From positions 1 through 51,332 of the forward strand of contig JACROD010000018.1 of assembly GCA_016214605.1 (NCBI GenBank): a DNA stretch of 51,332 nucleotides, given 5' to 3'. This DNA comes from Candidatus Kaiserbacteria bacterium (GTDB taxonomy: Bacteria; Patescibacteriota; Minisyncoccia; Phycocordibacterales; UBA2100). The notes beneath the pieces are model-generated. The model had not been told where the DNA came from. It was given only the letters and a program-made list of their open reading frames with translations, and made no database searches. This document shows, one piece after another, positions 1 to 51,332 of the stretch; position 1 is the first letter of the stretch; each line of letters starts with the position of its first letter. Both the position numbers and the translations under genes were made by a program.

Positions 1-125
1 AAATCCTACAGATATTGAGCGTGTCGCTATTCGACAAAAACGGCTTGGTTGAGCTATTTTCCGAGCGCAAGCTACAAAACAACGTCAAGGGTTTTGAAAA
101 TATGGCTTCGTTGTTTGATTTTTAA
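1..125 (+). mobile_element. IS4-family transposase, 3' fragment (truncated by window edge)
   Basis: The frame from nt 3 reads ILQILSVSLFDKNGLVELFSERKLQNNVKGFENMASLFDF*. This resembles the C-terminus of DUF4372-type IS4 transposases (ILQILS..LF..; ending LFD). The stop codon lies inside the terminal inverted repeat. Confidence 0.75.
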
Positions 126-138
126 CGGGACACGAGTG
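115..138 (+). repeat. IS4 right terminal inverted repeat
   Basis: TTGATTTTTAACGGGACACGAGTG is the reverse complement, apart from one T indel, of 51194-51216. Confidence 0.8.
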
Positions 139-207
139 GTAAATAATAATGCTCACATTATACACGCGATGTACGTGTGTTTCTAATACGTCCACAAGAC
201 ACGCTAC

Positions 208-245
208 ATACACTAACCCTACGCACGTGCGTAAAGTTAGTGTAT
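208..245. promoter_or_regulatory. 38-bp palindrome, copy 1 (putative PaaX-like operator or recombination site)
   Basis: ATACACTAA-CCC-TACGCA-CG-TGCGTA-AAG-TTAGTGTAT; same arms and spacing as 7926-7963 and 8607-8644. Confidence 0.75.
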
Positions 246-268
246 GTACATTCTTTATGAGGAGATTT

Positions 269-310
269 TTATGAATCAAACCTCTTGTTGTACAAGATCA
301 CATCGGTCTC
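269..310 (-). repeat. Duplicated 3' end of the FkbM gene (att-like direct repeat)
   Basis: 276-310 matches 2689-2723 at 33/35 nt. The minus strand encodes ETDVILYNKRFDS*, versus ETDVILYNKKFES* in the intact gene. Confidence 0.85.
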
Positions 311-505
311 ACCACAAGGGCATGGCCATTTTACTAAAGCGGCTTACCGCTAAGAAAAATTGATCTCAAGGAGCTACGGCACCGTGGTGCGCCAGATTTT
401 CTTGACGGTACCCCCGTCTTAGAAAATCCAGTGCAGATCGTACTCGATCTGCCAGAATTGAGCACAATTCTGCCTCTATGAGATACGGGAAGGTGCCCGC
501 CCGCG

Positions 506-1765: not shown

Positions 1766-1832
1766 TTTCGCTGTAGAATAGTCATGCTACGGGGTGCCTT
1801 TGTTGGCGTGGATTTTATGCTATTATGTGGAT

Positions 1833-2231
1833 ATGAAGTCAATTAACGCAGAGGTGCTGAAGGGTCTCGCCGAGAAACACGGACTTTCACTCGTGGTGCT
1901 TTTTGGTTCGCAGGCCACCGGCAAGACCCATGCGGGATCCGACACAGATATCGCCTTCTTTTCGATACAACCCAAAAACATGCTCGAGATCGCCGAGATG
2001 CAAATGGAGTTTACGGAAAAGCTCCGGATCAAAGACCTTGAGCTCGTGGACCTCGCCGGCAAAGCTCCCCTCTTTCTCAAGCAAGTGGCGGATCAAGGGA
2101 TCGTCCTATACGAGAAAGATCCGAGCGTGTTTGATGAATTCCAGATCTACGCATTCAAGCGTTATGTCGAGGCGAAACCGCTCTATGCCATGCGAGAAGC
2201 GGCGCTTCACAAGTACCTGCAGACAGTATGA
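1833..2231 (+). CDS. mntA: Minimal nucleotidyltransferase antitoxin (MntA-like)
   Basis: GSQATGKTHAGSDTD matches GSX10DXD. Overlaps a HEPN gene (ATGA). Start placed at the ATG 6 nt after TGcTATTAT. Confidence 0.88.
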   Translation: MKSINAEVLKGLAEKHGLSLVVLFGSQATGKTHAGSDTDIAFFSIQPKNMLEIAEMQMEFTEKLRIKDLELVDLAGKAPLFLKQVADQGIVLYEKDPSVFDEFQIYAFKRYVEAKPLYAMREAALHKYLQTV

Positions 2232-2647
2232 TCAGCCACGAGGTCGTCATCAATAAGCTGGTCGCCGTCAAAGATTACCTCGGCGAGCTTCAGCCACTCC
2301 TTCAAAGAGAGTCGCGCGAGATCATCGACGACAGTGTCGTGCTCCATGCCATTGAACGCCTTTTCCAGCTCATAGTCGATACGTCTATCGATATCAATAC
2401 CTACATCATCGGTGAGTCGGGCTTCAATGTACCCGAAGATTATCAAAGTACATTTATCACGCTCGGGGAACACGGCGTGATCCCGACGGACTTTGCACGC
2501 AAGATCGCGCCTTCTGTCGGGCTACGTAATCAGATCGTGCACAAATACGGCAAAGTCGATCTGAAATTCATGGTGGATCAGATCAAGGGAGAGATCGGAG
2601 ATTATGCGCAATACCTAAAGCACATAGACGAATTTCTCAAGAAATAG
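2228..2647 (+). CDS. hepT: HEPN/DUF86 RNase toxin (HepT-like)
   Basis: RNQIVHKY matches RX4HXY; translationally coupled to the MNT gene. Confidence 0.88.
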   Translation: MISHEVVINKLVAVKDYLGELQPLLQRESREIIDDSVVLHAIERLFQLIVDTSIDINTYIIGESGFNVPEDYQSTFITLGEHGVIPTDFARKIAPSVGLRNQIVHKYGKVDLKFMVDQIKGEIGDYAQYLKHIDEFLKK

Positions 2648-2681: not shown

Positions 2682-3476
2682 CTAGGACTCAAACTTCTTG
2701 TTGTACAAGATCACATCAGTCTCTATGAGGTATGGGAAGGTACCGGCGTTGTTGGGGACGAAGGTGCTGAGCTCGAAGCCTTTGGAGCGATAAAAGGCGA
2801 TCACCTCGGTATAATCGGGGATCCCCTCGTAGAGCTTCTTGATCGAAAGCTCGCTCTGGATCCCGACAAAATGCTCGAGTATCCCCTCTGATCCCTGTGC
2901 GATCGCGAGGTCGCTCCCCTGGGTGTCCATCTTGAGATACGGGCGCTTGAAGCCGAGCTTGGCCTGGTATTTGTCGTACATCTCCTTGAGTGTCACGGTC
3001 TTGACAGGGATCTCGGTGACGAGCGTGTTGCTCTTCTTGAGTGTATTGCCAGCCTCTTTGTCAGAGGGCATGTTGAGCGAGCTGAACTGATCGATCGCCA
3101 TGACCTTGAAGGTCGTATCGCGCGCGGTGCTATCGAGCGCGACCGCCTCGACAAACCAATTGGGATCCTTCTTGGCATTCTTGCGAAGCTTCTCGAGGGC
3201 CCGCGGGACCGGCTCGAAAGAAATGATCGGGCCCTTGTATCCGGTGCGGCGGAGCATCATCGCGTACTGGCCTTCATTGGCTCCCACATCAAAGACGCAG
3301 TCCACCCGGTAGTGCGGGAGGAATCGCTTGAGGTGCACTTGCTCAAAGATCACGCCGATGCGGCGCGGCTTCATGATACGGACGCCAAAGACCCGCTCGA
3401 CGATCGGAGCGTCGAAGATCACTTCGGTATAGTTCACATGTTTGAGCTTGTTGATGATTTTCTTGAGAGTGTTCAT
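2682..3476 (-). CDS. FkbM-family SAM-dependent methyltransferase
   Basis: VFDVGANEGQ, SFEP and LKMDTQGSD motifs. Confidence 0.9.
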   Translation of the reverse strand: MNTLKKIINKLKHVNYTEVIFDAPIVERVFGVRIMKPRRIGVIFEQVHLKRFLPHYRVDCVFDVGANEGQYAMMLRRTGYKGPIISFEPVPRALEKLRKNAKKDPNWFVEAVALDSTARDTTFKVMAIDQFSSLNMPSDKEAGNTLKKSNTLVTEIPVKTVTLKEMYDKYQAKLGFKRPYLKMDTQGSDLAIAQGSEGILEHFVGIQSELSIKKLYEGIPDYTEVIAFYRSKGFELSTFVPNNAGTFPYLIETDVILYNKKFES

Positions 3477-3503
3477 GGCTATGAATCGAATGGGGTGTGG
3501 CAA

Positions 3504-5959: not shown

Positions 5960-6043
5960 AATTAACTAAACCGCGCCACGATCCACGCCACACGGGCGGA
6001 CCAGCTGTATTTCCGAGCTACTTTGTGTGGTATAATTGTTTTT

Positions 6044-6325
6044 ATGGTAAAAGCTGAAATTCAATCAAAAATAGTGCCTATTTTGGAACGCGCCCATGTG
6101 CGGAAGGCGGCGATATTTGGCTCAACAGCGCGCGGAGACGATACCTCTGCAAGCGATGTCGATATTCTCATAGAAATGCCGCGGCCGTACAGTTTGTTTT
6201 CATTTTTGACGATCAAAAACGACCTCGAAGATTCGCTCCAAAAAAAAGTCGACCTGATCGAATATGGGACGGTCAAATCTGCGCTTCGAGAACGGATCCT
6301 CAACGATGCCGTCGATATTCTATGA
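6044..6325 (+). CDS. mntA: Minimal nucleotidyltransferase antitoxin (MntA-like)
   Basis: FGSTARGDDTSASDVD. Extended -10 TGgTATAAT lies 7 nt before the ATG. Confidence 0.9.
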   Translation: MVKAEIQSKIVPILERAHVRKAAIFGSTARGDDTSASDVDILIEMPRPYSLFSFLTIKNDLEDSLQKKVDLIEYGTVKSALRERILNDAVDIL

Positions 6326-6666
6326 CTTCCGCTCCTCGCGATGTAAACGTGTATCTCGACGACATCATTACCGCGATCACGCGCATCGAGACATATGTCG
6401 AGGGATTGAACATCGATCAATTTCGTGCCGACTCAAAGACCACCGATGCCGTCGTGAGGAACCTGGAGATCATCGGTGAAGCCGCAAAGAAGATCCCCGA
6501 CGAAATACGCACGGCACATCCGCATATCCAATGGCGTCCGGCCGCCGCGATGCGTGATTTTCTTATTCACGATTATCCATCCGTCGATATCGACGCCGTT
6601 TGGAACACCATCAAAAGTGACTTGCCTGTTTTACGAACAGGGATCGAAGAAATGCGGCGGGGCTAA
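6322..6666 (+). CDS. hepT: HEPN/DUF86 toxin (HepT-like)
   Basis: DAVVRNLEIIGEAAK and RDFLIHDY (RX4HXY); ATGA overlap with the MNT gene. Confidence 0.9.
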   Translation: MTSAPRDVNVYLDDIITAITRIETYVEGLNIDQFRADSKTTDAVVRNLEIIGEAAKKIPDEIRTAHPHIQWRPAAAMRDFLIHDYPSVDIDAVWNTIKSDLPVLRTGIEEMRRG

Positions 6667-7784
6667 AATAGGCTTGTGATCCGGTCTACACGAGCGGCCC
6701 AGCTGTGGGCTTGGGCTGATCGGAGATTTCTCTCCATGGTGTTTGGATTGGGCTCGGTGATCGCTCGCTCGGTCGCTCGGGCGAGACTCTCGGCATCGTC
6801 GGGCTCGTACCAGATGGCATCCGACTCTCCGATGATACTCGTGAGCGCAGGGGTATGGGAGGCGACGATGGGGCGGCGAGCGGCCATATATTCATAGACC
6901 TTCATCGGCGCGGTGTGGCGATATGACTGGTCATTGTGCTTGGTGCCGAGGATGAGCAGTGTGTCGGCGGCGGCGAGCCACAGGGGCACGTCGCTCGGCT
7001 CGCACTCGCCTGCAATGTGGAGATTGGCCGGGAGTGAGGTCCGCCCGGTGACCTTGGTAAATACTTCGGTCGTATCCCCCACCACGTACCAATCCAGCGC
7101 AGGTGCCTGCTTTGCGGCATCGACGAGGATATCGAGACCTTTCCATTCGTAGAATCGCCCCACGTAGAGTGCGATCTTTTTGTCTTGCGGAATATGAAGT
7201 CGCTTTCGCACTTCCCCCTGCGAAGAAGCATGAGCAAAGAGATCAAGGTCGACACCATTGGGCTCGATGATGGTCTTGTCTGATGAAATATCAAATCGAT
7301 CACACAGTGCATCTCGAATCTGCGTATTGGTCACCACAAGCAACTTCACGTGCTTGAAGAAAAATCGCGTGAATATATTGCATGGCTTGATATCATGCAT
7401 CTCGGCCACGACAGGAAACCCGAGGAGCGGGAGTAACGAAAAAGAAAACGTATCCATGTCTATTGTGTACACAATGCACCCCTCTCCTCGCATACGCTTC
7501 CACAGCAGATAGATACTGCTCGTGATGATAAATACGCACGAGCTGATAAAAAATGGGATGCGGCCGGAAGCATACAGGTCGAGCCCGGGAAGGATCGTGG
7601 TCGGTATATCGACGCGGAGTTTGTAGGCATCCTTGAGTGTCGCGATCGACGAGGCGTGCGTGCGCGGGATCACAAGCTCCAGATCGATCTCCGCTTCGAC
7701 AAAAGCCTCGCACATCTTGGCGACCTGTATGCCATAAGCCTTTTTGTTGGGCAGGCGCGCATTTACTATGTAAACGATTTTCAT
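6663..7784 (-). CDS. Glycosyltransferase family 4
   Basis: YVGRFYEWKG and PMKVYEYMAARRPIVAS GT-B motifs. Confidence 0.9.
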   Translation of the reverse strand: MKIVYIVNARLPNKKAYGIQVAKMCEAFVEAEIDLELVIPRTHASSIATLKDAYKLRVDIPTTILPGLDLYASGRIPFFISSCVFIITSSIYLLWKRMRGEGCIVYTIDMDTFSFSLLPLLGFPVVAEMHDIKPCNIFTRFFFKHVKLLVVTNTQIRDALCDRFDISSDKTIIEPNGVDLDLFAHASSQGEVRKRLHIPQDKKIALYVGRFYEWKGLDILVDAAKQAPALDWYVVGDTTEVFTKVTGRTSLPANLHIAGECEPSDVPLWLAAADTLLILGTKHNDQSYRHTAPMKVYEYMAARRPIVASHTPALTSIIGESDAIWYEPDDAESLARATERAITEPNPNTMERNLRSAQAHSWAARVDRITSLF

Positions 7785-7925
7785 ATTTCAATTGACCTTT
7801 TGTGGATACCTAAATATCATACACATACATTTGGCATTAGCCACGTCCCCTTCGCCGCAAGCGAAGGGATTTGCTTTTTACCTCCACACCCCTACTCATC
7901 AGCTCCACACCCACTCTTCTGATCT

Positions 7926-7963
7926 ATACACTAATTTTGCGCGGTCGCGTAAAGTTAGTGTAT
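7926..7963. promoter_or_regulatory. 38-bp palindrome, copy 2
   Basis: ATACACTAA-TTT-TGCGCG-GT-CGCGTA-AAG-TTAGTGTAT, downstream of the PaaX-like gene. Confidence 0.75.
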
Positions 7964-7997
7964 GCGATATTTGCTGCAAAATTACAGTCTTTGCAGT

Positions 7998-8042
7998 ACT
8001 TACGACACTTATGATACTTGTGATGTTCGTGGCACTTGCAAC
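7998..8042. repeat. Degenerate 9-bp tandem repeat (5 units)
   Basis: ACTTACGAC ACTTATGAT ACTTGTGAT GTTCGTGGC ACTTGCAAC, abutting the PaaX-like stop codon. Confidence 0.6.
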
Positions 8043-8608
8043 TACCCTATTTTGAAATATTTTTTGAGATGCCAATCTCCTTCCAACTCTTCGACGATCA
8101 TATACAACATGTCTTTACCTACCTTGAAGTCGGCTTTCAGAAGCGCGATCAAATCCTCGCAATCATACGGATAAGCCCATACACTATTTTGAAGCCTCAC
8201 AAAACCAATACTGCGGAGTGCACGGCGCACCTTGTCTCGCAATCCCTTTCGGTACTCGGGAATATCAAATATAAGTACTCGCCACTTACCATCCCATCGT
8301 TTCGGCGCCTGCGATGCAAAATCTCGAGCTTCTAGGCGGCGGAGTACCGCCTCTCCCTTAGAGGTCAGCTTTAGTTTGAAACCATCACGCTCTAAGAGCC
8401 CATCTCGCACCAGACGATCGCGAGCACGATTAATAATCTCTTTTTGGCGACGACCGGGGACAAGTCCGAGCTTCCCCATTGCACTAAGAACGTTTGGTGC
8501 CACCATGGCAACCCCGAGCATCCCCGTGAGAGCAACCGTGCCCAACACAAAAGACGTAACGTCTTTCCGTCTTTTTCTTTTTCTTCCTGATTCTTCTATT
8601 TTTCCCAT
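8042..8608 (-). CDS. PaaX-like regulator (winged HTH + Cas2-like domain), CPR type
   Basis: LTSKG wing, WDGKWRVLIFDIPE, LRSIGFVRLQNSVW. No cas1 or CRISPR array nearby. Confidence 0.85.
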   Translation of the reverse strand: MGKIEESGRKRKRRKDVTSFVLGTVALTGMLGVAMVAPNVLSAMGKLGLVPGRRQKEIINRARDRLVRDGLLERDGFKLKLTSKGEAVLRRLEARDFASQAPKRWDGKWRVLIFDIPEYRKGLRDKVRRALRSIGFVRLQNSVWAYPYDCEDLIALLKADFKVGKDMLYMIVEELEGDWHLKKYFKIG

Positions 8609-8644
8609 ACACTAAGTATACGCGACCGTGCACGTTTAGTGTAT
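8607..8644. promoter_or_regulatory. 38-bp palindrome, copy 3, containing the -10 box and overlapping the start codon of the PaaX-like gene
   Basis: ATACACTAA-GTA-TACGCG-AC-CGTGCA-CGT-TTAGTGTAT; the minus strand reads TATACT-tagtgt-ATG. Confidence 0.8.
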
Positions 8645-8767
8645 ATCCGTCTCCTACCAAATGAAAGCAGCCTAAGACTTTGCGAGTAGTCTGCTTTTAA
8701 TGGGTGGGTGGTTTGGGTTAGGTTGGGTGCGAGGAATAGTCGGTGGAGGCAATTGGTAGGGATCAGT

Positions 8768-10588
8768 TTACAGGGTAATGCGATACTGCTTCGCCCAGGA
8801 CTGGAAGACCATGAGTGCCCAGAGCATGGTGAGGTGATACTCGCTCGAATCCTGATGCCCTTTGAGCATCGCCTCGATCTCGTCCCACTGGAAGAGATCA
8901 CGCGTCGCTTCGCAGTATGAGGGAGAAAGTATCTCGCGCGCGAGCGCGCCGAAGCGCTCGTGGCGAAGCCACCTGCCAGCAGGCGGAAACCATCCGCGCT
9001 TAGGCTCGCTATAGAGATACTCGGGCAATCTGCCGCGGAAGGCGCGCTTGAGCATGCGCTTGGACTGTGTGAGGGTGAGTTTCTGCGAGCGCGGTATGCG
9101 CGCCGCAAAGGCGACAACTTCGTTGTCGAGAAAAGGCACGCGCGCTTCTACACCCGCCGACATCGACATCTTGTCAGTCTGCATGAGACTTTCGTCGACG
9201 AGCCAGGACCGCCGATCGACATCCATGAATATATCTTCGAAACTCCCCTTCATGGGCTTCGCAAAGAATTTGTCCTTGAAAAAGGAGCGCGTCACGTCGA
9301 GCTGGGTCCCAGACCGGAGCACCCGCGTGAGCACATCGTCCTTCTGAAAGAGAAACCGAGCAAAACGATCAACTCCCGGCGCGGTATCGAGCTTTCCAAC
9401 CTTACTATTGAGTCGATCTCCGATCGCGCGCAGCGGCGGCGGCAACATGCGGTAATACGAGGAGAGCAGACTCAATCGGTAGCGCTCATATCCGCCAAAG
9501 AGCTCGTCTCCGCCGTCGCCGCCACAAACGACCGTGGCCAGGGGCTTGGTGAAATGGGCGAGGCACATCATCGGGATCGCAGTCGTATTACCGGTGGGCT
9601 CGTCGAGGTGCCACACCATTCTTTCAAAAATCTCCGCAACATCGTCGCTAGAGAGCATCACCTCGTGATGTGTCGCACCATAGTATTCGGCAGTGCGACG
9701 GGCGAGTGCTTGGTCGGTGTTGTATTTCTCGGGCGTCTCGTCAGCATCAAGTGTGAAGCCCGTACTAAAGGTATTGATGGAGCTACGTACTCGCGAAGCA
9801 CTGTCGAGGATGATCGACGAATCGAACCCTCCCGATAGGTAAATACCAAGCGGACGGTCTGATACAAGCTGGCGCGTGACGGCGGCATCGATCACCTCGC
9901 GCAGTGCCGTATCGGTGATCCTGCCTGTATACGCACCATGCGCAGGATCGACGAACGACCGCATGGACATGACGCCGCCCTGGAGCGTGAGCATATGCCC
10001 GGGCTCGAGCTTCTTGATCTGCCTAAACATGGTATGCGGTGCGGGCACATAGAGCACGCGCAGGTAGTGCACGAGCGATTCGCGATCGAGCTCGCGCGCG
10101 ATGTCGTGATCGAGAATCGCTTTGATCTCGGAAGAAAATATCAGCCGCTTGCCGTCGGAGTGATAATAGAGCGGTTTGACGCCGCCGCGATCGCGCGCGA
10201 GGATGAGCTTCTTCTGGGCAGCATCCCAGATCGCAAAAGCAAAGATGCCGTTAAGCCGGGTAAAGGCATCAGTCCCCCATTTCTGATATGCGGCGAGGAT
10301 CACCTCGGTATCACCCATAGTCTTGTACGGATAATCGGCGAGCTCTTTTTTTAATTCTTGAAAATTGTAGATCTCGCCGTTGAAGACGATTGTCGTATTG
10401 CCATCGGCGCTCGTCATCGGCTGAGCGGCCTCGGGCCGCAGGTCGATGATCGCGAGCCTATTGTGCCCGAGCGATACACCACCCCCACAATACGCACCCG
10501 TCCCATCGGGACCGCGATGCTTGGTGGTATCGTTCATCTTGTCGATGAGCTCACGCTCTTCCCAATTGAATCCGTTAATTCCACACAT
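8768..10588 (-). CDS. asnB: Asparagine synthase (glutamine-hydrolysing) family amidotransferase
   Basis: N-terminal MCGING, HRGPD, FNGEIYN, LSGGFDSS, GDGGDELFGGY, EARVPFLD. Confidence 0.95.
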   Translation of the reverse strand: MCGINGFNWEERELIDKMNDTTKHRGPDGTGAYCGGGVSLGHNRLAIIDLRPEAAQPMTSADGNTTIVFNGEIYNFQELKKELADYPYKTMGDTEVILAAYQKWGTDAFTRLNGIFAFAIWDAAQKKLILARDRGGVKPLYYHSDGKRLIFSSEIKAILDHDIARELDRESLVHYLRVLYVPAPHTMFRQIKKLEPGHMLTLQGGVMSMRSFVDPAHGAYTGRITDTALREVIDAAVTRQLVSDRPLGIYLSGGFDSSIILDSASRVRSSINTFSTGFTLDADETPEKYNTDQALARRTAEYYGATHHEVMLSSDDVAEIFERMVWHLDEPTGNTTAIPMMCLAHFTKPLATVVCGGDGGDELFGGYERYRLSLLSSYYRMLPPPLRAIGDRLNSKVGKLDTAPGVDRFARFLFQKDDVLTRVLRSGTQLDVTRSFFKDKFFAKPMKGSFEDIFMDVDRRSWLVDESLMQTDKMSMSAGVEARVPFLDNEVVAFAARIPRSQKLTLTQSKRMLKRAFRGRLPEYLYSEPKRGWFPPAGRWLRHERFGALAREILSPSYCEATRDLFQWDEIEAMLKGHQDSSEYHLTMLWALMVFQSWAKQYRITL

Positions 10589-35376: not shown

Positions 35377-35599
35377 GCGCGCATTTATAGCATACTCATC
35401 TACCCAAGGCGAGTTTCTGATAATCAAGAACCTCGGTACAAAGCACCGAGGTATGAATGCGGGTGCGATGAGGGGTTAAAAGACCGATGCAAAGCACTGA
35501 GGTATGGGGAATACAATCACCCGACATCATTATCTCCCACATACATGTATTCTATGCTATAGCATAAGATACGTGTATACGGGAACAAACAGCAAAATG

Positions 35600-46641: not shown

Positions 46642-46935
46642 TTAGAAAATCCGAGTACCCTTGCGGTGCTTCTTGCGCGTAAAACGGCCAAGAGTCAAAG
46701 AGTAGAGGTCGAACAAATTCTTGAATTTGAGACCTTTTTCGCGCACATTCTTGCGCAGATCGGCGATATCCTCACGCATGAGCTTACTCTCTTCTGAAAA
46801 TTCGTGAGAGATGTGTTCGACCTCCGTGAGGATCTGATAGATGCGGAAAAAGATAAAAGCGAGCAAAAGACCGAGGATCGCGACCGTCACCGTAGTCACC
46901 AAAAAGAATATGTGCATTTGGGCAAAGTCGGTCAT
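46642..46935 (-). CDS. Hypothetical membrane protein
   Basis: Single TM plus coiled coil; TACAAT 6 nt before the ATG. Confidence 0.7.
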   Translation of the reverse strand: MTDFAQMHIFFLVTTVTVAILGLLLAFIFFRIYQILTEVEHISHEFSEESKLMREDIADLRKNVREKGLKFKNLFDLYSLTLGRFTRKKHRKGTRIF

Positions 46936-46947
46936 GAGACTATTGTA

Positions 46948-47343
46948 CTACTTCTCCTCCAAATCCAAACATACCGAATTAATACAGTACCGCTTGCCTG
47001 TGGGAGTGGGGCCGTCGTCGAAGATATGCCCGAGATGCGAGCCACACCGCGCACAGGTGATCTCGGTGCGGGTCATGCCATGACTGGTATCGGAGTGTGT
47101 CTCGACCGCGCCGGGCAAGGCCTGGTCAAAAGAAGGCCAGCCGGTGCCGGAGTCAAATTTTGCATCCGAGCTAAAGAGCGGATTGCCGCAAGCGGCACAA
47201 GCATAGGTACCGTCTGCCTTCTCATGTACATATTCACCCGTAAAAGGCGCCTCGGTCCCCCGCTCGCGCAAGACCGCGTACTGCTCGGGGGTGAGCATTT
47301 TCTTCCAGTCTTCTTCATGTTCGGGCATGGGTTTTTTGGTCAT
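46948..47343 (-). CDS. msrB: Peptide-methionine (R)-S-oxide reductase
   Basis: [35 protein letters not shown]. Confidence 0.97.
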
Positions 47344-51050: not shown

Positions 51051-51193
51051 AAAAGTTTATTTTTTCAAAAGAAAACACCCCGTAAGATAGGCCTAGGCCG
51101 CCATCTCTCGGGGCATCGGTGAGACCATTGTGCACGAATCAGAGCAATTAGTCAAATCTTCATAAATTGGGGCCCGTACCTTTGGTACGGGCC

Positions 51194-51332
51194 CACTCGT
51201 GTCCCGTTAAAATCAACATGACACAAAAAATATCCAGCAAACGCGGGATATTTTCATCATTTACGCCGTACACGATTTGAATTCGCCGTCGACCGGCTCG
51301 GGCGATACTGGAGGCATACCAGCCTCCTAACC
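51194..51332 (+). mobile_element. IS4-family element, left end (IR 51194-51216), truncated by window edge
   Basis: CACTCGTGTCCCGTTAAAATCAA is the inverted complement of 115-138; it sits against the hairpin at 51170-51194. Confidence 0.72.

What the first reader, a model, noticed from the sequence alone, without database searches (positions are those of the whole stretch)
7926..8644. PaaX/Cas2-like gene bracketed by inverted 38-bp palindromes, with a third copy 7.7 kb away
Seen: three ungapped copies (208-245, 7926-7963, 8607-8644) of ATACACTAA-N3-TRCGCR-N2-YGYGYA-N3-TTAGTGTAT. Copy 3 carries the gene's -10 (TATACT) and overlaps its ATG. Copies 1 and 2 carry the same TAnnnT-tagtgt-ATG geometry on the plus strand, so copy 2 could fire antisense into the gene. 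The central dinucleotides of copies 2 and 3 (GT, AC) are reverse complements. The outer flanks also mirror each other: C-rich at 7881-7915 and G-rich at 8701-8755. Established: characterised PaaX repressors bind widely spaced (~40 bp) inverted repeats, and CPR homologues with a Cas2-like fold are largely uncharacterised. Inference: this is either the operator and regulon of this family (autorepression, looping, control of glycan genes) or the ends of a small mobile or invertible unit.
Basis: partly seen in the sequence, partly recalled or inferred. Interest (0 to 1): 0.85.

Follow-up and report, generated by a model that had tools for sequence, protein, structure and literature searches.

The report
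Palindrome-bracketed DNA-binding gene module
A small gene for a DNA-binding protein with a Cas2-like domain sits between two copies of its own 38-base palindrome, an arrangement repeated in hundreds of relatives in ultra-small groundwater bacteria and apparently undescribed.

Summary
Three exact ATACACTAA-N20-TTAGTGTAT palindromes lie at 208-245, 7926-7963 and 8607-8644, and a fourth lies on another contig. Two of them bracket a 188-aa gene with a winged helix and a Cas2-like PaaX_M domain.

- **Paralogues:** all 7 paralogues in this genome are bracketed by their own, different palindromes.
- **Other genomes:** so are 24 of 28, 6 of 6 and 74 of 80 homologue loci, against 4 of 150 control genes.
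- **Promoter:** in 60 of 100 loci the upstream dyad centre lies exactly 17 nt before the ATG. A TAnnnT -10 box sits at -12..-7 in 43 of those 60, against 17 of 60 at the mirror position.
- **Recognition:** outer-arm sequence co-varies with the recognition helix.
- **Precedent:** the footprint (38 bp) matches the E. coli PaaX operator (39 bp).

Best reading: the palindromes are paralogue-specific operators of an autorepressed, leaderless gene.

The antisense-promoter geometry, the GT/AC inversion and control of glycan genes are not conserved or not supported.

Modules and solo palindromes change position between close relatives, so a selfish or mobile layer remains open. The role of the downstream copy is unexplained.

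The parts
8042..8608 (-). [quoted passage not shown] It lacks the PaaX C-terminal ligand domain.
   Evidence: PF20803 at 1.8e-19; NCBIfam cas2 27.8 bits (cut-off 24.5); PaaX equivalog 36.7 bits (cut-off 264.55). AF2 model pLDDT 74.8. Top Foldseek PDB hits are E. coli PaaX 8a39 and Rv0674 3kfw, then Cas2 chains.
8607..8644 (-). Its dyad centre lies 17 nt before the A of the ATG, and its outer arm ends in the ATG.
   Evidence: The same centre position occurs in 60 of 100 family loci.
8615..8620 (-). -10-like hexamer TATACT at -12..-7, inside the gene-proximal half of the upstream palindrome. It implies a leaderless or near-leaderless transcript.
   Evidence: Read directly. TAnnnT occurs at this position in 43 of 60 loci, against 17 of 60 at the mirror position. 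The sigma-70 scan that requires a -35 box did not call it.
7926..7963 (-). It is a second cognate site whose role is unresolved.
   Evidence: A matching downstream palindrome is present in 57 of 60 loci, at a median of 15 nt after the stop.
208..245 (.).
   Evidence: Window 1-141 is shared with 8 other contig ends; 270-310 duplicates 2683-2723; 298-369 is a dispersed repeat.
7881..7915 (+). Tract that is C-rich on the + strand, so G-rich on the gene strand, just outside the downstream palindrome.
   Evidence: Family-wide GC skew on the gene strand is +0.21/+0.15/+0.14 at +80..+200, against about 0 in 300 control genes. Function unexplained.
8701..8755 (+). Tract that is G-rich on the + strand, so C-rich on the gene strand, just outside the upstream palindrome.
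   Evidence: Family-wide GC skew is -0.16/-0.21 at -120..-41. Function unexplained.
35540..35579 (.). Solo palindrome of a sister family. It is cognate to the paralogue on contig C32 and lies 113 nt upstream of a pilin-like gene.
   Evidence: Genome-wide palindrome scan; neighbouring genes; N_methyl motif.
46935..46948 (.). Empty site. In the closest relative, G044, the orthologous module (75% aa identity, same arms) is inserted between the two genes that abut here.
   Evidence: G044 contig C5 is colinear with window 15-44 kb.

Best explanation
The 38-bp palindromes are the cognate binding sites of the protein encoded between them. This protein is a minimal PaaX-type regulator. Its N-terminal winged helix reads the 9-bp outer arms. 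Its Cas2-like domain presumably forms the dimer that spans the site.

The upstream copy covers the gene's own -10 box and its start codon. Binding there would therefore shut off a leaderless promoter, which is classic autorepression. The downstream copy, placed shortly after the stop codon, is a second site for the same protein. Its role is inferred only; looping with the upstream site, or acting as a barrier, are possibilities. Solo copies elsewhere are further binding sites.

Each paralogue has evolved its own arm sequence together with its recognition helix.

- **Shown:** the architecture, its conservation, the promoter geometry and the co-variation.
- **Inferred:** binding, dimerisation, repression and any looping.
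For: 1. **Not chance.** There are 3 exact copies where 0.01 are expected.
2. **Paralogue-specific sites.** All 7 PaaX_M paralogues of the genome have their own up- and downstream palindromes with different arms.
3. **Conserved bracketing.** Up- and downstream flanks share at least 26 of 36 bases in 24 of 28 loci from relatives, 6 of 6 loci in G044 and 74 of 80 loci from species genomes across Patescibacteria. Only 4 of 150 control genes do so.
4. **Promoter geometry.** The dyad centre is exactly 17 nt before the ATG in 60 of 100 loci. TAnnnT lies at -12..-7 in 43 of 60, against 17 of 60 at the mirror position.
5. **Co-variation.** Arm similarity tracks the recognition helix plus wing (Spearman 0.389; partial 0.29) more than the Cas2-like domain (0.327; partial 0.126) or the N-terminus (0.156). 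E[Y/F] in the helix goes with ACG in the arm in 15 of 15 loci, against 0 of 40 for other helices.
6. **Family precedent.** The E. coli PaaX operator is given as TGATTC-N27-GAATCA, 39 bp overall (review PMC9493321, passages read). The fold search puts PaaX 8a39 first.
7. **Motif and protein co-occur.** The motif is found in 4 of 41 relatives, among them all 3 that have a homologue of 66% identity or more. The closest relative G044 has an A-type protein and 5 A-type sites, and no family-B sites were found there with the one pattern tried.
Against: - No binding, dimer or expression data exist. The dimer prediction gave no verdict.
- A plain autoregulator does not need a downstream site, yet 57 of 60 loci have one. 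That site usually lacks promoter features.
- Solo sites show no functional theme. They are absent upstream of glyA and relA/spoT in 5 of 5 other genomes of the genus. That is odd for a regulon and suggests the sites arrive by insertion.
- Modules sit at different places in colinear relatives.
- Even the two syntenic orthologue pairs between G000 and G044 have different arms.
- An Asp matching the Cas2 YDI motif is invariant in 37 of 37 members. It is not conserved in E. coli PaaX (alignment). This hints at a function beyond dimerisation.
- The Mantel-type tests do not correct for shared ancestry.
- With a stricter palindrome criterion, only 4 of 28 loci had both sites.
Confidence: 0.65

Rival explanations
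1. The unit is a selfish or mobile module, analogous to REP/RAYT, and this reading could coexist with autoregulation. The protein would act on its palindromes enzymatically, for example by Cas2-type metal-dependent cleavage at the dyad. That action would relocate the gene and seed solo palindromes. Autoregulation would then be only the housekeeping layer of the element.
For: - Copy number varies from 0 to 7 per genome within one genus.
- 4 of 6 modules in G044 lie at sites that are empty or different in G000, inside otherwise colinear DNA.
- At one locus, next to a gene that reads like threonyl-tRNA synthetase, two genomes hold different paralogues in opposite orientation and G000 holds none.
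- Each protein family has its own dispersed palindrome family of 2-9 copies.
- Family-B solos upstream of glyA and relA/spoT are missing in 5 of 5 relatives. A near-perfect 40-bp palindrome is unlikely to arise by point mutation (inference).
- The Cas2-type Asp is invariant in 37 of 37 members.
- A truncated gene remnant lies beside a palindrome at C3:49543-49652.
Against: - No two gene copies in the genome are near-identical; the closest pair is 67.6% identical. There is therefore no sign of recent transposition.
- Indel borders do not coincide with the palindromes, and no target duplication was seen.
- No HUH, DDE, serine or tyrosine recombinase signature was found in the Pfam or NCBIfam hits.
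- Copy numbers are far below those of REP families.
- No alternative joints appear in public contigs (low depth).
- No relatives were found in viral contigs.
- The modules often lie in variable islands, where passive gain and loss is common.
Confidence: 0.25
2. The palindromes act as RNA or single-strand hairpins rather than duplex operators. The downstream copy would be a terminator or stabiliser of the gene's mRNA, possibly bound by the RRM-like Cas2 domain.
For: - The downstream copy begins at a median of 15 nt after the stop codon.
- The sites fold as DNA hairpins well beyond shuffled controls, with z-scores of -4.9, -6.4 and -13.8 for three of four sites.
- Cas2 relatives include RNases; SSO8090 and SSO1404 are among the fold hits.
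Against: - No T-run follows the downstream copies of the 7 paralogues (read). The terminator scan did not call copy 2 or copy 3.
- The 3-nt spacers are not complementary in most family-A copies (sequences), so pairing is not what is conserved there.
- The upstream copy would lie outside a leaderless transcript.
- Copy 3 folds weakly (z-score -2.3).
- Arm co-variation with the recognition helix points to DNA reading by the winged helix.
Confidence: 0.08
3. The unit is an invertible or excisable switch. The two palindromes would be crossover sites whose central GT/AC dinucleotide sets polarity, as in serine-recombinase sites.
For: In this locus the centres are GT and AC, which means inverted orientation. 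The module is inverted relative to conserved flanks between two genomes at one locus, though those are different paralogues.
Against: - Among 17 loci with GT/AC centres at both sites, 10 have the same orientation and 7 the opposite.
- Most centres are symmetric (AT in 33 of 57 upstream sites).
- No recombinase gene lies in the unit.
- Public contigs bridge copy 2 and copy 3 colinearly, with no joints there (contigs only, depth about 3-5).
Confidence: 0.02

Closest known systems
PaaX, the phenylacetyl-CoA-responsive repressor of E. coli and Pseudomonas (PDB 8a39; relatives 3l09, 3kfw)
   Same: Both have a winged helix followed by a Cas2-like middle domain. The target is a widely spaced inverted repeat of about 39 bp overall (TGATTC-N27-GAATCA; review PMC9493321). 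PaaX represses its own promoter by occluding RNA polymerase (same review).
   Different: - The protein here has 188 aa and no C-terminal ligand-binding domain.
- It scores far below the PaaX equivalog cut-off (36.7 against 264.55 bits).
- It keeps the Cas2-type Asp that E. coli PaaX lacks.
- The site is composite: 9-bp outer arms plus a GC-rich inner palindrome.
- The gene is bracketed by two sites.
- There are up to 7 paralogues per genome, each with a distinct specificity.
- There is no link to aromatic catabolism.
Cas2, the CRISPR adaptation protein and metal-dependent nuclease fold
   Same: The fold is shared, as is the beta1 F/Y-D-I ... Q-x-S-V signature. NCBIfam cas2 scores 27.8 bits, above its 24.5 cut-off. 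Cas2 chains are among the top fold hits. Some database records name members 'CRISPR-associated endonuclease Cas2'.
   Different: The protein is fused to a winged helix. None of the 7 paralogues lies beside cas1 or the CRISPR array, which sits at C20:68.6-77.5 kb and has its own 93-aa cas2-sized ORF. The palindromes are unlike the CRISPR repeat. The Pfam CRISPR_Cas2 score is below its cut-off (21.3 against 23.8).
REP elements with their RAYT genes
   Same: A single-copy gene is flanked by two copies of a short palindrome. Each gene family has its own dispersed palindrome family in intergenic DNA.
   Different: The protein is not a Y1/HUH transposase. Copy numbers are 2-9, not hundreds. The flanking orientation is not fixed. 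The upstream copy is integrated with the promoter and start codon at single-base precision.
Repressors that loop between operators several hundred bp apart, such as DeoR and LacI (from recall)
   Same: Two cognate palindromic operators lie about 640 bp apart around or near the regulated promoter.
   Different: Here the second operator lies behind the regulator's own stop codon and the loop would enclose the whole gene. No evidence for tetramerisation was obtained.

Membership tests
PaaX (NCBIfam TIGR02277 equivalog) | Full-length match above the curated cut-off | tested here: not met
   36.7 bits against a cut-off of 264.55; only residues 58-157 match.
PaaX (NCBIfam TIGR02277 equivalog) | C-terminal ligand (phenylacetyl-CoA) domain | tested here: not met
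   The protein ends at residue 188, directly after the PaaX_M domain. No PaaX_C hit at E <= 1.
PaaX-like architecture (wHTH + PaaX_M, Pfam PF20803) | PaaX_M Cas2-like middle domain above the gathering score, preceded by a winged helix | tested here: met
   PF20803 scores 70.1 bits against a cut-off of 24. The model shows helix-helix-helix-wing before the domain. The best fold hit is 8a39. The winged helix has only weak Pfam hits (HTH_45 at 0.21).
PaaX-like architecture (wHTH + PaaX_M, Pfam PF20803) | Binds a widely spaced inverted repeat overlapping its own promoter | not testable with these tools
   Geometry and co-variation fit, but binding itself needs an experiment.
Cas2 (CRISPR adaptation) | Sequence match above curated cut-offs | tested here: inconclusive
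   NCBIfam cas2 scores 27.8, above 24.5. Pfam CRISPR_Cas2 scores 21.3, below 23.8.
Cas2 (CRISPR adaptation) | Encoded beside cas1 and a CRISPR array | tested here: not met
   Cas1 and a 46-repeat array lie at C20:68.6-77.5 kb. The paralogues lie at C13, C21, C10, C6, C32, C20:94 kb and C20:34 kb.
REP/RAYT | Y1 (HUH) transposase-like protein | tested here: not met
   There are no such Pfam or NCBIfam hits. No His-hydrophobic-His motif is among the invariant columns.
REP/RAYT | Gene flanked by cognate palindromes that are also dispersed in the genome | tested here: met
   Copy numbers are only 2-9.
Insertion sequence / MITE | Terminal inverted repeats at the indel borders, with target-site duplication | tested here: not met
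   Indel borders lie 40-450 bp outside the palindromes, and no duplication was seen at three compared sites.
Serine-recombinase inversion switch | Inverted crossover sites with an asymmetric central dinucleotide, plus a recombinase | tested here: not met
   Orientation is the same in 10 loci and opposite in 7, and most centres are symmetric. There is no recombinase in the unit.
Intrinsic terminator | GC-rich hairpin followed by a T-run | tested here: not met
   Copies 2 and 3 were not called by the scan. No T-run follows the downstream copies of the 7 paralogues.

The most novel reading that the evidence does not exclude
The wHTH-Cas2-like proteins of Patescibacteria may be autonomous, site-specific DNA enzymes. 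They would recognise a composite palindrome through the winged helices and cut or nick it at the dyad with the conserved Cas2-type Asp pair. That activity would spread their palindromes and move their own gene. This would be a new kind of minimal selfish element, and a free-living relative of Cas2 that already pairs a Cas2 fold with palindromic repeats.
Probability: 0.15. Interest if true: 0.85.

Novelty: new variant of a known kind. Interest (0 to 1): 0.66.

Why it matters
Patescibacteria (CPR) have very few recognisable transcription factors and none that has been characterised. This family is large: 2217 clusters at E <= 1e-5 and at least 591 loci in species genomes found with a single motif pattern. 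It has up to 7 paralogues per 1-Mb genome, and its members are currently labelled 'hypothetical', 'PaaX' or 'Cas2'.

The comparative data give three things at once:
- a predicted binding site for every member;
- a readable recognition code, for example an aromatic residue after the helix Glu pairing with ACG in the arm;
- a leaderless promoter model for these organisms.

All three can be tested directly with purified protein.

The rapid relocation of the modules, the lineage-specific solo sites and the invariant Cas2-type Asp raise the further possibility of a new kind of selfish element built on a Cas2 fold. It would also correct a recurrent mis-annotation as CRISPR Cas2.

Tried and rejected
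**Public reads.** Three groundwater runs from one study were available, as Logan contigs only, at depth about 3-5. One contig bridges copy 2 (7299-8250) and one bridges copy 3 (8327-9777), both colinear. No joints fall at the palindromes. This is too shallow to exclude rare inversion or excision. No RNA holder was listed.

**Dimer prediction.** The result was 'no answer' (0.31 against a mark of 0.42). It is not used as evidence either way.

**Strict palindrome detectors.**
- (at least 15 of 20 matches) missed many sites.
- (a perfect 8-mer arm) found both sites in only 4 of 28 loci, upstream only in 3, downstream only in 8 and none in 13. Of 300 control genes, 23 had an upstream hit, 28 a downstream hit and 4 both.
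- I replaced these with a measure of similarity between the up- and downstream flanks.
- In that control, 4 of 150 genes reached 26, two of them scoring 34 and 36. I did not check whether those are family members.

**Rho-type insulation by the C-rich tracts.** No Rho RNA-binding domain was found in the genome, which is 96.8% complete. I dropped the idea, and the mirrored skew stays unexplained.

**Heat-shock regulon for the dnaK-linked paralogue.** Its sites lie near dnaK and lemA, but also near an Obg-downstream ORF, an MGMT-like gene and a convergent gap. No theme emerges.

**Glycan regulon for family A.** Not supported.

**CRISPR link.** The CRISPR locus is separate with a different repeat, and its 45 spacers hit nothing but the array itself.

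**Small ORF after copy 1 (244/271-363).** Window 270-310 duplicates 2683-2723 and 298-369 is a dispersed repeat, so this is probably not a gene.

**Solo palindromes as footprints of lost modules.** The G000 sites that correspond to G044 modules hold no palindrome. The orphan palindrome at C18:49161 is unrelated to the G044 module at that island.

**Empty-site test at the window's own module.** In G044 only the asparagine synthase gene is conserved there, so the test is uninformative.

**Alignment of glyA upstream regions.** The regions could not be aligned.

**Viral contigs.** 19 pattern matches were found, none of them a relative.

**Literature.** These searches returned 0 papers each: PaaX + 'Cas2-like', PaaX + operator + 'inverted repeat' + spacer, PaaX + Cas2 and PaaX + Patescibacteria. 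PaaX + repressor + palindromic returned 8 papers, none on this family judging by titles and abstract starts. From I read only passages of PMC9493321. The primary PaaX operator and structure papers were not read. I did not ask for supplementary files.

**Names from recall.** ThrRS, MsrB, RecJ-like, the Cas12a-type repeat and REP/RAYT are my own reading or recall. None was tested with a family search.
Full report
**1. The observation**

The pattern ATACACTAA-N20-TTAGTGTAT occurs three times in the 51,332-nt window, at 208-245, 7926-7963 and 8607-8644. Every copy has 0 mismatches although 3 were allowed. The expected number is 0.01, and no shuffle out of 100 reached 3.

The window is a complete contig of a 1.09-Mb, 34-contig genome. 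Across the genome there is a fourth perfect copy at C5:6456-6493 and two 2-mismatch relatives at C3:49615 and C21:2613. The 9-mer half-site occurs 13 times in the genome, 10 of them inside these six sites. It is therefore a low-copy motif, not a high-copy repeat.

**2. The gene**

ORF 8042-8608 (-) encodes 188 aa.
- Pfam finds PaaX_M, described as the 'PaaX protein central Cas2-like domain', at 1.8e-19. The hits to CRISPR_Cas2 and to winged-helix models are weak.
- NCBIfam gives the PaaX equivalog 36.7 bits (cut-off 264.55) and cas2 27.8 bits (cut-off 24.5).
- By sequence, the only solved relatives are E. coli PaaX 8a39 (E 0.01) and Rv0674 3kfw.
- An AlphaFold2 model built on a 37-member alignment has mean pLDDT 74.8. 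The C-terminal domain scores 80-93 and the N-terminal third 50-65. The model shows three helices and a wing followed by a beta-alpha-beta-beta-alpha-beta domain.
- Foldseek against the PDB ranks PaaX 8a39 first, then 3kfw, then a series of Cas2 chains.

The protein ends where PaaX's ligand-binding C-domain would begin. It is therefore a minimal relative with PaaX architecture, not a PaaX orthologue.

The very hydrophobic stretch at residues 17-41 after a basic N-terminus could be mistaken for a membrane anchor. I read it as helices 1-2 of the winged helix by analogy with PaaX. This is inference, and the model is weak there.

**3. Every paralogue has its own palindromes**

The genome holds seven full-length paralogues, 28-68% identical to the window protein, plus a 25-aa C-terminal remnant. 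For all seven, the 260 nt before the start and after the stop contain palindromes of 36-44 bp with the same layout. The outer arms are specific to that paralogue, the short spacer is variable, and the inner palindrome is GC-rich around a centre such as GGTC, TATA, AATT or GGCC.

A genome-wide scan for this layout recovered further solo members:
- Family A, the window's family, has 4 copies.
- The family of the C32 paralogue has 9 copies, counting one seen only. One of them lies in this window at 35540-35579.
- The family of the dnaK-adjacent paralogue has 6 copies.
- The other families have 2-4 copies.

All of these sites are intergenic.

**4. Conservation in other genomes**

The protein was found in 27 of 41 related genomes, G000 included, with 0-7 matches per genome.

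I tested whether the 250 nt upstream and the 300 nt downstream of a gene share a similar 36-mer.
- 24 of 28 loci from relatives reached at least 26 of 36, against 4 of 150 random genes of this genome, whose 95th percentile was 23.
- All 6 paralogues of the closest relative G044 scored 27-33.
- 74 of 80 loci reached it in species genomes labelled Kaiser-, Taylor-, Zambryski-, Ryan- and Nomurabacteria, Paceibacterota and others.

Nearly all the shared segments are palindromes of the layout described above. A stricter detector that demanded a perfect 8-mer arm performed much worse, finding both sites in 4 of 28 loci. I report this because it shows that many sites are imperfect.

The family is large, with 2217 clusters at E <= 1e-5. 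Sources name its members 'hypothetical protein', 'DNA-binding transcriptional regulator PaaX' or 'CRISPR-associated endonuclease Cas2'.

**5. Promoter geometry**

Among 100 loci whose alignment starts at a clean ATG, 60 have the upstream dyad centre exactly 17 nt before the A of the ATG, as in the window. A further 11 loci have it 15-21 nt before the ATG.

In those 60 loci, positions -12..-7 read T49 A54 n A37 A40 T45 (counts out of 60). TAnnnT is present in 43 of 60, against 17 of 60 at the mirror position in the distal half. The outer arm then runs into the ATG.

A -10 box whose last base lies 7 nt before the start codon implies a leaderless or near-leaderless mRNA. It also means that a protein bound to the palindrome would cover both the -10 box and the start site. 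The generic sigma-70 scan, which requires a -35 box, does not call this promoter.

**6. The protein reads the arms**

Across 55 non-identical loci with the same register, similarity of the distal 10-nt arm correlates with identity in different parts of the protein as follows:
- recognition helix plus wing: Spearman 0.389, partial 0.29 given the Cas2-like domain;
- Cas2-like domain: 0.327, partial 0.126;
- N-terminus: 0.156.

All permutation p-values are <= 0.003, but these tests ignore shared ancestry.

A simple rule is also visible. Helices with E-Y or E-F go with arms containing ACG in 15 of 15 loci. Helices with another residue there go with ACG in 0 of 40.

The motif and the protein also co-occur across genomes. 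The family-A pattern, allowing 1 mismatch, is present in 4 of 41 relatives. Those include all three that hold a homologue of 66% identity or more, plus G006, whose best homologue is 60% identical. G044 holds a 75%-identical protein and five A-type sites.

**7. Comparison with PaaX**

A review of the phenylacetate pathway (PMC9493321; I read the passages on PaaX) gives the E. coli PaaX site as TGATTC-N27-GAATCA. It also states that PaaX represses its own promoter by hindering RNA polymerase. That site is 39 bp overall, against 38 bp here.

The mechanism I favour is therefore the family's known one. A dimer, held together by the Cas2-like domains, places two winged helices about three helical turns apart. 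This is inferred. The dimer prediction gave no verdict.

**8. What is not conserved**

A matching downstream palindrome exists in 57 of those 60 loci. It begins at a median of 15 nt after the stop codon, with a range of -9 to 166; in the window the distance is 78 nt.

The downstream palindrome rarely carries promoter features.
- TAnnnT occurs in the outward direction in 12 of 57 loci and in the inward direction in 18 of 57.
- TAnnnT together with an ATG occurs in the inward direction in 5 of 57.

Where both centres are GT or AC, they have the same orientation in 10 loci and the opposite orientation in 7. Overall identity is better in the direct orientation in 25 loci, better in the inverted orientation in 17, and tied in 15. 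The GT/AC inversion in the window therefore looks incidental.

The mirrored composition is a real tendency. On the gene strand, GC skew averages -0.16 and -0.21 at -120..-41, and +0.21, +0.15 and +0.14 at +80..+200 over 35 loci. In 300 control genes it is about 0, with sd about 0.25. I have no explanation for this. A Rho-loading role is unlikely, because no Rho RNA-binding domain was found in the genome.

**9. Solo sites**

- The fourth family-A site lies between divergent genes for a PEP-utilising dikinase and a methylpurine DNA glycosylase.
- Copy 1 lies in a patchwork of repeats next to an IS-like contig end.
- Sister-family solos lie 25-250 nt upstream of dnaK, lemA, glyA, relA/spoT, ruvA, an FAD oxidase gene, secD, a holB-like gene and a pilin-like gene. 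One lies in a convergent gap.

No functional theme emerges, and nothing ties family A to the glycosyltransferase genes apart from adjacency.

In five other genomes of the genus, including G044 whose GlyA and RelA are 87% identical, no palindrome with at least 15 of 20 matches lies within 330 nt upstream of glyA (0 of 5) or relA/spoT (0 of 5). The solos are therefore lineage-specific.

**10. Turnover**

G044 contig C5 is colinear with window 15-44 kb. Yet its family-A module, with 75% aa identity and the same arms, lies between an MsrB-like gene and a small membrane-protein gene. In the window those two genes abut at 46935/46948. The window's own module lies 39 kb away, next to an asparagine synthase gene whose G044 orthologue has different neighbours.

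Two further G044 modules sit at sites that hold 58 bp and 234 bp in G000. A fourth lies in a variable island. Only two of the six are syntenic, and even those have diverged arms.

Downstream of a gene that reads like threonyl-tRNA synthetase, two genomes carry different paralogues in opposite orientation and G000 carries none.

The indel borders lie 40-450 bp outside the palindromes, and I saw no target duplication. No two gene copies within G000 are closer than 67.6%. No relative was found in viral contigs. Public contigs show no rearrangement joints, but at depth 3-5 that carries little weight.

**11. Weighing the readings**

The module's internal logic is well supported by independent comparative signals: cognate sites, one of which overlies a leaderless promoter, read by the winged helix. 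I put specific binding with autorepression at about 0.65.

The purpose of the system is less clear. Several facts fit a self-contained, frequently relocating module better than an ordinary regulon:
- the near-universal second site behind the stop codon;
- the lineage-specific solos, which as near-perfect 40-bp palindromes are unlikely to arise by point mutation (inference);
- the rapid relocation;
- the Asp that is invariant in 37 of 37 members, aligns with the YDI Asp of this genome's own Cas2 (a weak profile match) and is not conserved in E. coli PaaX (alignment).

I give a selfish or enzymatic layer about 0.25, and it could coexist with autoregulation. I give an RNA-hairpin role about 0.08 and an inversion switch about 0.02.

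**12. Novelty**

Full-text searches for PaaX with 'Cas2-like', with Cas2 and with Patescibacteria each returned 0 papers. A search for PaaX with repressor and palindromic returned 8 papers, none on this family judging by their titles and abstract starts.

Within the limits of that library, I did not find the module architecture, its paralogue-specific code or its turnover described. Supplements were not consulted, and subscription papers such as the primary PaaX operator and structure papers were not held or read.

I class it as a new variant of a known kind: a PaaX-type autorepressor with a widely spaced operator. There is an open chance that it is something more unusual.

Noticed in passing
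G000 contig C20:68642-77500 (locus L094:6641-15507): A complete CRISPR-Cas locus in this small Patescibacteria genome. It has 46 copies of a 36-nt repeat at 60-63-nt spacing, followed by ORFs of 93, 318 (Cas1, E 9.8e-49), 179 and 1291 aa. The repeat resembles Cas12a-type repeats (recalled, not tested). The 45 spacers match nothing else in the genome or in the fetched loci.
   Followed up: partly
window 1-141 and 51192-51332 (contig ends): Nearly all 68 contig ends fall into groups that share about 140 identical nt. The group containing the window's start has 9 ends. Two groups end in the same ~20 nt, as the two inverted ends of an insertion sequence would. The genome appears rich in IS-like repeats that break the assembly.
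   Followed up: partly
window 298-369: A 60-70-nt dispersed repeat, 80-95% identical, with further copies at 7 places on 6 contigs (C20 twice, C1, C8, C12, C10, C11). It contains a short hairpin followed by an AAGGAG motif. Logan contig depth is 3-5 times higher over window 1-400.
   Followed up: no
window 270-310 versus 2683-2723: A 41-nt, 90% identical duplicate of the 3' end of the gene at 2682-3503 lies just after copy 1. This suggests a past rearrangement there.
   Followed up: no
G000 C6:10033, C12:6261, C18:43098, C23:4480 (and near the C24 end): A different repeated palindrome built from GGAAGGTCTGACCTTCC units occurs at four or more intergenic places. It is unrelated to the PaaX_M family sites.
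   Followed up: no
locus L006 (G001:C32:29876-30436): The 70%-identical orthologue in genome G001 carries one in-frame TGA at codon 10 while both of its palindromes are intact. This could be a pseudogene, a sequencing error or read-through.
   Followed up: no
G000 C3:49543-49652: A remnant of the last 25 codons of a C21-like paralogue is still attached to its downstream palindrome. It sits next to a duplicated gene cluster shared with C21 and C10.
   Followed up: partly
window 7792-7868 (+): A promoter-like site (TTGACC-17-TATCAT) is followed about 30 nt later by a terminator-like hairpin with a T-run. It lies between the glycosyltransferase gene and copy 2, and could be a tiny transcript or chance.
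   Followed up: no
window 1794-2647 and 6023-6666: Two pairs of adjacent, overlapping small ORFs read like nucleotidyltransferase/HEPN (DUF86-type) toxin-antitoxin pairs inside the glycan gene cluster. This is my reading of the translations and was not run through Pfam.
   Followed up: no
G000 C5:6447-6502: The fourth family-A site is a 56-nt near-perfect palindrome with 27-nt arms and only the central AC unpaired. It has A5/T5 runs at its ends and a DNA fold z-score of -13.8. It extends 9 nt beyond the family consensus on each side.
   Followed up: partly
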